IMG/VR virus record: IMGVR_UViG_3300037149_000094
Coordinates: 4,944-68,943 of that record
Length of the DNA: 64,000 bases
Reading direction: 5' to 3' (one strand)
DNA from: a virus
Positions 33,001-36,000 of the stretch are shown here, in pieces; within the stretch, counting starts at the first letter, position 1; the number at the start of each line of letters is the position of its first letter. The position numbers are program-made.

Positions 33001-36000
33001 AGGAATCAGAAGATGGCGATTCCGATTCTGATGATGGTGGCGAGGACGGCGACGAAGAAGAACTCGATCCAGACAACGAACCGGAGCCGATGCCAACCAG
33101 GGCGAAATCAGGACCCAAAGATCTGGCAGCGTTCCATACGAAACAGATTCAATAAGAAGTCGCGTCCCTTGTGGGCGCGTGGATTGAAACCTGCGGGATA
33201 CTCTGAAGGCTGATCCTGGGACTGTGCGCACGGTTCCGCGCTTTAACCAGCAACCCTTTTTCCTCTGGAGGAAAAATCAAATGTCCACTGAAACAAATCC
33301 CAATGCAGCAACATCCACCGAAAATGAAGTCCCCGTCGTCGGAAGTGCGGTAGTCGTCACCTTCTACAGCGGCAACCAGCAACTATCGAGCGTCGTGGCC
33401 CACGTCCTGGCCATCACCGGCGCCGCGGCCAACCTCGCAACCACAGACGGCCAGCCCGCGCTTACCGTGGCCTACCCGGACCCGAACGCTGATCCTGCGG
33501 TTCTATTAAGCGCAAAGTGGCAGAACGGCTACATCCGCAAGACAGGCGTCGTCCATTACACGCACGATCTGGCGGTCGACGGGAAAGAGTCGATCGTCTG
33601 GGGATATCCGGTCGCCCCGTCCGAGCTCCCCACGCTCATCAAGAGGGATGCGCCGGCAATCAACCCCATTTTCGAGCGTCCTGTAGATGTGGAGGTCCCC
33701 GAGGTTCCGCTGGGACAGGCTGGAGCAGTGACACTCCGGAGCGAGTCTGAGCCAATTACGACAGCAACGGCTCCAGAGACGGCGCAGGACGCTGCAACCG
33801 CAGCATCCGACCAGAACGCTCACAATGCGGCCGTGGCAGCGGACCAGGCTGCACAGGTCGCGGACGCGGCTGCTGCCAATGCGGAGGAAGTGCATAGCAG
33901 CTAGCCGTGCTACTCTCCGCTTGAGCGTGGGATAGGATTCTGATTGGCGGTCGGGGTCCTGTCAGCGGCACCACGCCGAGCGGTTGCAGAACCCAGGGGC
34001 TTTCCTCCTTTACCTCTGGGTTCTCCCGCCAAATTGGTTACCAAAGATTTCGATATTTCCCTCTTGACAACATATCAACTGATTTTCTCTGACCGCCATC
34101 GGAGGCACCGTGGATCGTAAAACGCTAAGAAATTCAGTCCGTCAAATGCAGCCTGTGAGCCTGCCAATCGCTCCTATAATTCTGATTAAAGAAGAGATTC
34201 CGCTTCCTGACAGGTACATCGAGCCCCTTTGGGCGCGAGAACTGGTCAGAGAGTGGGCCAAACGTGAAGAGCTTCTAGCCGTGGGGGCATACCCAACTCA
34301 ATCGATCCTGCTGCGAGGGCCCAGCGGTGTCGGAAAGACTACATCTGCCAGGTGGATCTCAGAGAAGCTCAGCATGGCGCTGTTCTCCATGTCGATGGCA
34401 CGGACAATCGACAGCTATATGGGAAAGACAGGGAGCAATATCGAGGCTGCTCTTCGGTACGGTATCGACTCGCCTGTGATTATTTTGGTCGACGAGATCG
34501 ACGCCATCGCAGCAAATCGATCACAGAAGCATTCAGACGTTGGCGAGATATGGCGAATCACCAACACCTTCATTCAGGAGATGGACCGCTGGCACCAGTC
34601 TCCCAGGAAATCGCTGCTCATCGCCACGACGAATATGGGCAACAGTGACATTGATCCAGCCATTCAACGCAGGTTTGAACTTCAAGTTGAAATTCCACTT
34701 CCGACCGCAAAAGAGCTATCGCGGCTCTCGGGGATCGTATGGCCTGAAGAGTTCATTGTGAGTCATGCCGTGTGCCGCCGGATGGTTCTACAGGCAAAGC
34801 GGCGCTCTGTGCTGGATGATGCCAACTACGAATTGACGCTTGGAGCCATGATTTCGCAGGAAATATCTGCGGGACGGGAGATGCCATTTTGACAGAACAG
34901 GAGCAAATTCAAGCAATTTACGACGCCTATCCGCGCAAGGTCGGACGCCGAGCTGCGCTCAAGGCCATTGAGAACGCCGTCAAACGTATCGTCACGCATG
35001 GGGGGAATCTTCTTGCTGCGGGGCTAGCTGCGGGGCTAGACCTAGAACCTCTGAGTTGTCGAAGATGGCTGTACAAACGCACTGCAGAATACGCCTTGAG
35101 TCCCGCAGGTCAAAAGCCATCCGACCCGGCGCAGGACTTCAGGCCGCACCCGTCCACATGGTTCAACCAAGACAGATTCTTTGACGATCCTGCCGAATGG
35201 CAGAAACCCAATGGGGGAAGCAATGGAAAGCAGATTGGCACGAAAGCAGCCAGGACAATTGATGCAGTCAGAGCGGCTATCGCCAAAGCAGCAGATCATG
35301 GCGGCTCTCGGGATGCTGGCGATCATGAGGAACGGCGAATACAACGAAGCGACTCTGGAGATATTTGCAGCAGGACTATTAAAGGAACCATTTGAGGATG
35401 TGATTGCGACCATCCAGGAGATTGCTGAGAGCCCACGGCGTGAGCGAGAAACGGCCTGCCCAGACTACGGCACGCTTCTGGTGGCCATCCGGTCCATCCG
35501 ACACCCGCTGCGGCACCTACGTGAGATTGTGGCCCGTCTGGCGCGTATCTATGGCGTCACAGTAGATGAGGAGATGCTCTTGGAGTACGAGGCTGAGGCA
35601 GGACACAGAACAGATGAGGACCTAGACAAGGCTCTTGGGGTCCTGCGAGGGGACGAGACGATCAGGAAGATGCCCACACCCGCATATTTCCGGTACGCCT
35701 GCGGGACTCCAAAGGTCTACCGGGATGGGACGAGGCCGGAATGAAGCAAGACCTCACACTCGACGCAGGTTTGCCGTGCAATATCGACGCAGAACGAACG
35801 CTGCTCGGAGCTGTCTTATTGGACAACTCCGCGTGGGAAGAGATTCGCCAAGGCCTGAAGTCGGACGATTTCTCTCTCGACAGCCACAGACGTATCGCCA
35901 AAGCCATCGGTGGCCTGATGAAGAACGGCCATGCTGTCGACATTGTTACGCTGGCCAATGAACTGAACGCACGACATGAGATTGAAGCGATTGGAGGAGT

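What the first reader, a model, noticed from the sequence alone, without database searches (positions are those of the whole stretch)
33159..33280. Solitary type I-C CRISPR repeat: RNA anti-CRISPR (Racr) candidate
Seen: one canonical 32-nt I-C repeat 3 nt after a stop codon, followed by about 34 nt of spacer-length sequence and a small GCGC-N8-GCGC hairpin. There is no second repeat or cas operon. Established: solitary repeat units in phages can be processed by Cas5d/Cas6 and sequester Cascade subunits. Inference: a Racr against host type I-C, or a one-spacer guide against competitors or a host promoter.
Basis: partly seen in the sequence, partly recalled or inferred. Interest (0 to 1): 0.75.

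Follow-up and report, generated by a model that had tools for sequence, protein, structure and literature searches.

The report
Lone CRISPR repeat in peat phage
An uncultured 69-kb peat phage carries one genuine type I-C CRISPR repeat, recently inserted between two replication-module genes; this fits the known class of phage solitary repeats that can act as RNA decoys against CRISPR, but the sequence after it is ordinary phage DNA, not a spacer.

Summary
Window 33159-33190 (+) is a perfect 32-nt type I-C repeat, unique in the complete 68.9-kb virus record, which has no I-C cas genes. It is one loop base away from the repeats of large arrays that lie beside cas8c.

The "spacer" is not a spacer. 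None of 20 related phage contigs has the repeat, and the closer ones keep the same downstream intergenic sequence. A roughly 90-95% identical contig in another sample joins 33156 to 33190 with one base between. The repeat is therefore a recent 33-nt insertion into a conserved intergenic region.

In the probable source sample, a small repeat-spacer-repeat contig carries the same repeat, so a matching CRISPR system co-occurs with the phage.

Best reading (0.42): a young solitary repeat unit, co-transcribed with the upstream gene like RacrIC1 and acting as a Cas5c/Cascade decoy. Nearly as likely (0.36): a neutral, recently captured piece of a host array. The one-spacer-guide reading is disfavoured, because siblings carry GTC rather than TTC at the PAM position.

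This is a new member of a known kind and of modest interest. This scan has already noted lone I-C repeats in other phages (e1-5701035, e1-5496882, e1-2995067).

The parts
33159..33190 (+). Solitary type I-C CRISPR repeat (SRU). Stem is 33161-33167 paired with 33173-33179 (7 bp including one G-U), loop is 33168-33172. The predicted 11-nt 5' handle is 33180-33190, so the predicted Cas5c cut falls between 33179 and 33180.
   Evidence: Searches show it is unique. One search shows the hairpin in both the MFE and centroid folds. Searches show it is 1 mismatch from array repeats in 4 genomes. Searches show such arrays lie beside cas8c. The 11-nt handle is taken from PMC3727216 (passages).
33157..33189 (+). 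The 33 nt absent from the closest repeat-less relative. That contig joins 33156 to 33190 with a single T between. This marks the insertion: two A's plus the repeat, whose last C is shared with the old sequence.
   Evidence: table 5 (X2 'skips 33'), table 5c, and table 8 record 4 (2724-nt contig).
32508..33155 (+). Upstream gene of 215 aa with a confidently folded core, a disordered acidic linker and a conserved C-terminal helix. It belongs to a phage-only family of unknown function. The SRU lies 3 nt after its stop.
   Evidence: Searches found no family. One search found 52 homologues, none named. One search gave AF2 pLDDT 82.4. One search found 0 PDB matches at E<=0.001. One search found only uncharacterised phage proteins.
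33191..33224 (+). The supposed 'spacer'. It is ancestral intergenic sequence that includes a conserved TACTCT box (33199-33204), possibly a -10-like element.
   Evidence: Searches show the same sequence after the stop codon in repeat-less relatives. One search shows TGCTACTCT-type boxes upstream of late genes.
33217..33238 (+). Conserved 9-bp hairpin that predates the repeat.
   Evidence: One search gives the fold. One search shows 4 substitutions against L002, all pair-preserving, including one compensatory T-A to C-G change.
33257..33276 (+). An 8-bp hairpin that encloses the GGAGGA ribosome-binding site of the downstream gene.
   Evidence: It is partly conserved in L002.
33281..33904 (+). 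Downstream gene of 207 aa, function unknown, with a conserved N-terminal domain and a low-complexity tail.
   Evidence: Searches found no family. Searches found and aligned 14 homologues.

Best explanation
A single type I-C CRISPR repeat was recently captured from a host-type array. It was inserted 3 nt after the stop codon of a replication-module gene, in the sense orientation. The inserted piece is 33 nt: two A's plus the repeat, replacing one T.

Proposed mechanism: the repeat is transcribed by read-through as part of the polycistronic early or middle mRNA. Host Cas5c (Cas5d) recognises the 7-bp repeat hairpin and cuts between 33179 and 33180. Cas5c and Cas7 then load on phage RNA fragments that carry a repeat hairpin or an 11-nt handle but are not proper crRNAs. 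This ties up Cascade subunits and weakens I-C interference, which is a Racr-like decoy.

Shown: repeat identity, hairpin, orientation, solitary state, recency of the insertion, and co-occurrence with an array of the same repeat. Inferred: transcription, Cas5c processing, and any inhibition of interference.
For: - The repeat is exact in form and unique in the genome.
- It differs by 1 loop base from array repeats in 4 genomes.
- Csd1/Cas8c scores above cut-off in 7 of 10 genomes tested that hold such arrays. In two of them it lies about 3 kb upstream of the array on the same strand. This fixes both the subtype and the transcribed orientation, which matches the phage genes.
- The hairpin is kept through a G-U pair.
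- The phage has no I-C cas genes.
- In the probable source sample, a 96-nt contig reads repeat, 33-nt spacer, repeat. Its second copy has 0 differences over 28 nt.
- Independent Logan contigs reproduce the junction: 6405 nt at depth 60 in X1, and 151 nt with 0 differences in X6.
- There is a precedent. RacrIC1 lies 11 nt downstream of acrIC5, is transcribed with it on one RNA, and by itself relieves I-C targeting (PMC10651486, passages).
- RacrIF1 forms an aberrant Cas6f-Cas7f complex and acts as a competitor.
- 83% of viral SRUs match the host's CRISPR subtype.
Against: - There is no sign of long-term selection. 0 of 20 related contigs carry the repeat, and a relative with 89% amino-acid identity in the upstream protein lacks exactly this piece.
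- No sigma-70-like promoter was found on the + strand in 18000-37500, and no terminator follows the repeat. RacrIF1 is dose dependent and highly expressed from its own promoter.
- Other viral I-C solitary repeats look like small-RNA genes, for example L031/L034 with a hairpin plus T-run 20 nt downstream. This one does not.
- Neither neighbouring gene is a recognisable acr or aca.
- The host is unknown.
Confidence: 0.42

Rival explanations
1. Neutral passenger. The 33-nt piece of a host I-C array entered the phage by illegitimate recombination during infection. It sits in a tolerant intergenic spot and has no function yet. It looks perfect only because it is young.
For: The piece is absent from all 20 related contigs and from the closest relative. 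The junction is slightly untidy: one base is replaced, two extra A's are present, and there is no target duplication. No promoter, terminator or acr neighbour was found. The repeat matches a co-occurring array copy (0 differences over 28 nt), as expected for a very recent capture.
Against: The captured piece is almost exactly one repeat, in the sense orientation and in an expressed operon. A random fragment of an array would usually include spacer sequence. The repeat-bearing form is the only form seen at depth 60 in X1 and recurs in X6. Solitary repeats of this type are a recurrent, experimentally active class (PMC10651486).
Confidence: 0.36
2. Cas5c-dependent processing site. The repeat lets the host nuclease cut the phage polycistronic RNA between the two genes. 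This would uncouple their stability or translation, with any CRISPR inhibition as a side effect.
For: The repeat sits exactly between two co-directional genes, 3 nt after a stop and upstream of a conserved leader containing two hairpins. Cas5c leaves a hairpin at the 3' end of the upstream fragment (PMC3727216).
Against: There is no direct evidence. Relatives manage without it. It would work only in hosts that have I-C.
Confidence: 0.08
3. One-repeat guide against sibling phages. Cas5c cutting would give an RNA with the 11-nt handle followed by the conserved intergenic sequence. Cascade could then be directed at repeat-less relatives, while the phage itself is protected by the repeat at the PAM position.
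For: The 34 nt after the repeat match the same site in relatives: 29 of 34 in L002, and this site is aligned in the X2 contig. Earlier notes of this scan proposed this logic for other phages.
Against: The three bases before the matching site in relatives are GTC (L002, L003/L042, L039 and the X2 junction). The I-C PAM is TTC/NTTC (PMC8406640; PMC6546366). There is no 3' repeat. L002 has a mismatch at guide position 8. The insertion point was not a PAM-protospacer boundary.
Confidence: 0.05
4. Cracr-like regulator. This would be a crRNA-like RNA whose pseudo-spacer pairs with the host cas promoter, or a toxin promoter, to silence it.
For: Phage crRNA-like regulators against I-C loci exist (preprint 10.1101/2024.10.29.618823, abstract and section 7).
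Against: The pseudo-spacer predates the repeat. There are 0 matches of TTC plus the first 8-12 nt in 158 kb around 22 I-C arrays, though none of these is the real host. There is no second repeat.
Confidence: 0.02
5. Assembly artefact. On this reading the repeat would be a chimeric join between phage and array reads.
For: The record comes from a metagenome that also contains arrays with this repeat.
Against: Logan's separate assembly gives the identical 6405-nt contig at depth 60. A 151-nt contig from a second sample spans 33084-33234 with 0 differences. Both flanks are continuous phage sequence.
Confidence: 0.01

Closest known systems
RacrIC1 downstream of acrIC5 in a Bifidobacterium pseudocatenulatum prophage (Camara-Wilpert et al. 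2023, PMC10651486)
   Same: Both are a solitary type I-C repeat on a phage, a few nt after a protein gene (11 nt there, 3 nt here), in the same orientation, and expected to be co-transcribed with that gene.
   Different: There the upstream gene is a known anti-CRISPR, and the operon has a mapped promoter and tested activity. Here the upstream gene belongs to a conserved, uncharacterised replication-module family that relatives have without the repeat. No promoter was found and nothing has been tested.
RacrIF1 (Thiocystis violascens prophage I-F solitary repeat; PMC10651486)
   Same: A repeat mimic proposed to load Cas proteins into a non-functional complex and compete with real crRNAs.
   Different: RacrIF1 is a stand-alone, highly expressed small RNA with its own promoter, for type I-F and Cas6f. 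This element is an insertion inside an operon and is for type I-C and Cas5c.
Viral solitary repeat units (SRUs) as catalogued with SRUFinder (2,103 viral SRUs, IMG/VR3 included; PMC10651486 section 9)
   Same: It meets the working definition: an intergenic match to a known repeat, no other repeat nearby, and no cas genes.
   Different: Here relatives fix the polarity and exact borders of the insertion. I could not check whether this very record is already in their list, because supplements are closed.
Viral crRNA-like regulators (Cracr; preprint 10.1101/2024.10.29.618823) and virus-borne mini-CRISPR arrays (Medvedeva 2019, not read, known from notes and recall)
   Same: These are repeat-derived RNAs on phages that use host Cas proteins.
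   Different: They have a pseudo-spacer or spacer chosen against a target, flanked by two repeats. Here there is one repeat, and the following sequence is the phage's own old intergenic DNA.

Membership tests
Type I-C CRISPR repeat | 32-nt unit with the conserved 5' GTCGCG and 3' ATTGAAAC ends, as seen in real arrays | tested here: met
   One search gives the sequence. Searches show the same frame with any 4-nt loop in 22 stretches (19 contigs), with arrays of up to 270 repeats. The nearest repeats are 1 mismatch away in 4 genomes.
Type I-C CRISPR repeat | Internal hairpin recognised by Cas5c | tested here: met
   A 7-bp stem (one G-U) with a 5-nt loop appears in the MFE and centroid folds. 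That Cas5c targets hairpin repeats comes from PMC3727216.
Type I-C CRISPR repeat | Arrays of this repeat class lie beside the I-C signature gene cas8c (csd1) | tested here: met
   TIGR01863 scores above cut-off in 7 of 10 genomes tested that hold such arrays. The other 3 are MAGs. In two genomes it lies about 3 kb from the array on the same strand.
Type I-C CRISPR repeat | Cut by Cas5c 11 nt before the repeat's 3' end | not testable with these tools
   No RNA data are available. The cut position is predicted from PMC3727216.
Viral solitary repeat unit (SRU) | Intergenic, on a virus, and matching a known repeat | tested here: met
   The record is a virus that CheckV rates 100% complete. Both flanking ORFs end or start where their homologues do.
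Viral solitary repeat unit (SRU) | No other full or partial repeat nearby and no cas genes | tested here: met
   Searches found one copy at up to 3 mismatches. One search shows the next-best 32-mer within +/-1.5 kb has 14 mismatches. Searches found no Csd1, Cas5d or Csd2.
Racr (RNA anti-CRISPR) | Expressed as RNA, with a promoter within 250 bp or co-transcription with an upstream gene | tested here: inconclusive
   No sigma-70-like site was found on the + strand, and no terminator lies between the upstream gene and the repeat. Co-transcription is inferred only.
Racr (RNA anti-CRISPR) | The host carries the matching CRISPR-Cas subtype | tested here: inconclusive
   An array fragment with the same repeat is present in the probable source sample. 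The host itself was not identified: 575 spacers from 22 array stretches (19 contigs) gave no match, and 0 of 401 genomes in one phylum held the phage protein.
Racr (RNA anti-CRISPR) | Binds Cas proteins and inhibits interference | not testable with these tools
   This needs an experiment.
Racr (RNA anti-CRISPR) | Frequent neighbourhood with acr or aca genes (supportive, not required) | tested here: not met
   The genes within 1 kb are an HNH endonuclease and two unknown families conserved in repeat-less relatives.
Cracr / mini-array guide | A spacer or pseudo-spacer flanked by two repeats and selected against a target next to a PAM | tested here: not met
   There is one repeat only. The 'spacer' is ancestral. 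Siblings have GTC, not TTC. There are no TTC-seed matches near 22 I-C arrays.

The most novel reading that the evidence does not exclude
By landing directly in front of a conserved intergenic leader, the lone repeat may have turned that leader into a handle-tagged guide. Host type I-C Cascade would then attack repeat-less sibling phages, tolerating a GTC PAM, while the carrier is protected by the repeat itself. That would make it a 33-nt, protein-free competition or homing device born in a single step.
Probability: 0.05. Interest if true: 0.7.

Novelty: new member of a known kind. Interest (0 to 1): 0.33.

Why it matters
Solitary repeats on phages are already an established class with proven RNA anti-CRISPR members, so the element itself is not a surprise.

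The useful addition is that relatives pin down the event. A clean, very recent capture of essentially one repeat (33 nt) landed in a conserved intergenic site, while an array with the same repeat co-occurs in the same sample. This gives a natural before-and-after pair, the repeat-bearing phage and its repeat-less relative's region. The pair could be used to ask whether a bare repeat dropped into an operon, with no promoter of its own, is already enough to blunt type I-C immunity. In other words, it could show how Racrs are born.

It also warns that "spacer-length sequence after a lone repeat" should not be read as a spacer without checking relatives.

Tried and rejected
- **Rfam:** the only match at E<=1 in 32500-34000 was an unrelated lncRNA model (E 0.31). 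No CRISPR-DR family was reported.
- **Exact 32-mer:** 0 hits in viral contigs, genome contigs and metagenome contigs, so the repeat alone does not name a host.
- **Nearest repeats:** they occur in very different phyla, so the repeat class is not host-specific.
- **Spacer search:** 575 unique spacers from 22 array-bearing stretches were compared with the phage. The best match was 17 identities within a 34-nt spacer, which is chance level.
- **Cracr seed search:** 0 hits, but the real host was not among the loci searched.
- **Host search:** the 215-aa family profile found 0 of 401 genomes in the phylum of a Bryobacteraceae MAG. That answer says little, because no positive control exists.
- **Cultured phages:** no homologue of the upstream protein. 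DnaB reached at most 30% identity.
- **Upstream protein:** no function from Pfam or PHROGs, PDB sequence search, the Atlas or Foldseek. Some distant relatives carry a DIPF-like motif in the tail. The strict pattern was found in 0 of 52 homologues, so I make no SSB claim.
- **Spacer-protospacer recombination as the origin:** rejected, because neither flank has TTC at the expected distance (read).
- **Repeat creating a promoter with the TACTCT box:** rejected, because TTGAAA lies only 9 nt from the box.
- **RNA evidence:** no RNA holder was listed, so expression could not be examined.
- **Uncovered parts in X6 and X7:** not interpreted.
- **Supplements:** closed, so I could not check whether this record is in the SRU list of PMC10651486.
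- **Array spacers shown:** I did not compare them with the phage, because those letters are not window or locus sequence.
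Full report
**What is there.** Window 33159-33190 (+) reads GTCGCGTCCCTTGTGGGCGCGTGGATTGAAAC. It starts 3 nt after the TAA stop of ORF 32508-33155 and lies 90 nt before the ATG (33281) of the next gene.
- It is the only copy in the window at up to 3 mismatches, and none of 100 shuffles gave a match.
- It is the only copy in the whole record, a 68,943-bp IMG/VR virus that CheckV rates 100% complete.
- Within +/-1.5 kb the next-best 32-mer differs at 14 positions, so there is no degenerate second repeat.
- Models for Csd1/Cas8c, Cas5d and Csd2/Cas7 find nothing in the record. 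The Csd1 model works on array-bearing genomes.
The fold prefers a 9-bp hairpin at 33217-33238.
- The 146-nt region as a whole is not unusually stable: z = -0.43, and 65 of 200 shuffles fold at least as well.

**It is a real type I-C repeat.** Keeping both arms and the 3' tail but allowing any 4-nt loop, the pattern occurs in 22 stretches on 19 contigs of the species-representative genomes.
- These include arrays of 25-33, 37, 79 and 270 repeats.
- Four genomes have a repeat only 1 base different, in the loop.
- Csd1, the I-C signature gene, scores above its curated cut-off in 7 of 10 of these genomes that I tested. The other three are MAGs.
- In the Rugamonas and Oligoflexales genomes it lies about 3 kb from the array on the same strand. 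The repeat orientation given above is therefore the transcribed one.
- The phage copy keeps a 7-bp stem, with the T at position 7 pairing as G-U, in both the MFE and centroid folds.
- Cas5c cuts hairpin repeats 11 nt before the spacer (PMC3727216, passages). This predicts a cut between 33179 and 33180.
- The taxa holding the nearest repeats span many phyla, so the repeat does not name a host.
- The exact 32-mer is absent from all three collections.

**Context.** The repeat sits in a + strand replication and recombination module:

| Gene | Coordinates |
|---|---|
| Exonuclease-like | 27531-28886 |
| SbcC-like ATPase | 29695-31596 |
| HNH | 31909-32478 |
| Unknown, 215 aa | 32508-33155 |
| **Repeat** | 33159-33190 |
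| Unknown, 207 aa | 33281-33904 |
| AAA ATPase | 34110-34892 |
| Replication initiator-like | 34889-35395 |
| DnaB | 35741-37084 |

- No sigma-70-like promoter was found on the + strand between 18000 and 37500, and no terminator flanks the repeat. Any transcription of the repeat would be read-through from the upstream genes, which is an inference.
- The 215-aa protein has 52 homologues, none named.
- Its model is confident (pLDDT 82.4), with a disordered acidic linker.
- It has no PDB match at E<=0.001. Its only BFVD matches are uncharacterised phage proteins.
- Nothing marks it as an anti-CRISPR.

**Relatives show that the "spacer" is old phage sequence.** I recovered 20 distinct related contigs through the two flanking proteins.
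- None has anything closer than 12 mismatches to the repeat.
- The whole 67.8-kb genome of the closest IMG/VR relative has no I-C repeat.
- In that relative the stop codon is followed by GGTC and then by the same intergenic sequence that follows the repeat here. That shared sequence includes the TACTCT box, the 9-bp hairpin and the RBS hairpin.
- Within the hairpin, all 4 substitutions keep pairing, and one pair changes from T-A to C-G.
- Another lineage (L003/L004/L042) has GTC and then the same start of the element. L039, L040 and L005 keep parts of it.
- TACTCT is also the core of a TGCTACTCT box upstream of several late genes (lead from note e1-6188356). The conserved element may therefore be a -10-like promoter box, but this is conjecture.

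**Contigs from sequencing runs (all are Logan contigs, so only presence can be read).**
- **X1 (peat).** This is the probable source and so not independent. It holds a 6405-nt contig at depth 60 that is identical across 32300-34300. The repeat is therefore not an artefact of one assembler.
- **X6 (peat).** This run has a different study code, though the same year and habitat could mean one campaign. It has a 151-nt contig spanning 33084-33234 with no difference.
- **X2 (freshwater).** It has a 2724-nt contig that is about 93% identical upstream and 96% downstream. It joins 33156 directly to 33190 with a single T between. Its upstream protein is 89% identical (P0016). The insertion is therefore 33 nt replacing 1 nt, a net 32 nt, made of two A's plus the repeat. 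It is younger than the split from this relative.
- **Array fragment in X1.** A 96-nt contig (depth 3.6) reads repeat, 33 nt, repeat. The second copy is identical over the 28 nt present, and the first has 3 differences.
- **X7 (lake).** It shows three such repeat-spacer joints with 32-34-nt spacers at 85% or greater likeness.
- Together these show that a CRISPR system with this repeat lives in the same community as the phage.

**How it most likely works.** The class is known.
- Viral solitary repeat units were catalogued: 2,103 viral SRUs including IMG/VR3, of which 83% match the host subtype (PMC10651486 section 9).
- RacrIF1 forms an aberrant Cas6f-Cas7f complex and competes with crRNAs in a dose-dependent way (section 7).
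- The closest precedent is RacrIC1, a I-C repeat 11 nt downstream of acrIC5. It is transcribed with acrIC5 on one RNA and is active on its own.
- By analogy, I rate a Racr-like decoy as the best single explanation (0.42). On this reading, read-through transcription is followed by Cas5c binding and cutting at 33179/33180. Cas5c and Cas7 then load on non-crRNA phage fragments, leaving less functional Cascade.
- Only the sequence-level steps are shown.

**What weighs against it.**
- The repeat is very young and confined to one lineage, so there is no evidence of selection.
- It has no promoter or terminator of its own, unlike another viral I-C solitary repeat I found. L031/L034 has a hairpin plus T-run 20 nt downstream.
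- Its neighbours are not recognisable acr or aca genes.
- A neutral, freshly captured fragment of a host array is therefore almost as likely (0.36).

**Other readings.**
- **Guide against siblings.** This idea was raised by earlier notes of this scan for other phages. It fails its simplest test here. The bases before the matching site in relatives are GTC, whereas I-C needs TTC/NTTC (PMC8406640; PMC6546366). There is no 3' repeat, and L002 differs at 5 of 34 positions including position 8.
- **Cracr-type regulator.** The preprint 10.1101/2024.10.29.618823 describes pseudo-spacers selected against a host promoter. Here the sequence predates the repeat, and no TTC-seed match was found near 22 I-C arrays.
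- **Cas5c-dependent mRNA processing site.** This cannot be excluded (0.08).
- **Assembly artefact.** This is very unlikely.

**Known or new.** This is a new member of a known kind.
- The new element is descriptive: the exact borders and recency of the capture, and a natural repeat-less comparator.
- I could not check whether this IMG/VR record is already listed in the supplementary SRU tables of PMC10651486, because supplements are closed.
- Faure 2019, Nam 2012 and Medvedeva 2019 were not read. They are known to me only through citations in the papers above or from recall.

**Limits.**
- The host was not identified.
- No RNA data are available.
- Only contigs, not raw reads, were laid.

Noticed in passing
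window 33217-33238; L002 2939-2960: A 9-bp intergenic hairpin is conserved between the phage and its relative. It has 4 substitutions, all pair-preserving, one of them a compensatory T-A to C-G change. It predates the CRISPR repeat and its role is unknown.
   Followed up: partly
window 33199-33204 and 33911-33916 (+); 2316, 3084, 8071, 11811, 15524, 56275 (-): A TACTCT box, mostly in the form TGCTACTCTTTCC, lies upstream of late genes on the minus strand and just after two stop codons in the replication module. It looks like an extended -10 type phage promoter without a -35 element.
   Followed up: partly
window 33257-33276: An 8-bp hairpin encloses the GGAGGA ribosome-binding site of gene 33281-33904 and is partly conserved in L002. 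It may control translation.
   Followed up: no
L032 (minus strand, about 2440-2580) and L036 4760-4900: In an unrelated AT-rich phage, a solitary I-C repeat is flanked by an 11-bp direct repeat (ATAGTAGAGAC), with 9 extra bases on the upstream side. This resembles a target-site duplication and hints at how some solitary repeats are inserted.
   Followed up: no
L033 (minus strand, about 10756-10860): A viral mini-array: a full I-C repeat, then 34 nt, then a 5'-truncated second repeat of about 23 nt, followed by a promoter-like TTGACA box.
   Followed up: no
L031 508-620 and L034 (same locus): A solitary I-C repeat with a strong hairpin plus T-run about 20 nt downstream. This is the classical small-RNA gene layout and contrasts with the window's operon-embedded copy.
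   Followed up: no
L043, L046-L052, about 1-150 nt after the stop of the 215-aa homologue: More distant relatives carry a conserved element of about 150 nt here, with two TTGAC-type promoter-like boxes and a GC-rich structured segment. It is a possible small RNA gene.
   Followed up: no
window 32508-33155 and homologues in L043, L045, L047, L049, L052: The upstream protein family has a disordered acidic linker. Some distant members have a DIPF-like motif reminiscent of SSB tails, and there is a conserved C-terminal helix (KSGPK..A.H). The fold has no PDB match.
   Followed up: partly
window 37844-39622 and 42817-54132: The phage has a GroEL-like chaperonin (phrog_5725, E 3e-95) and a 3771-aa ORF.
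   Followed up: no
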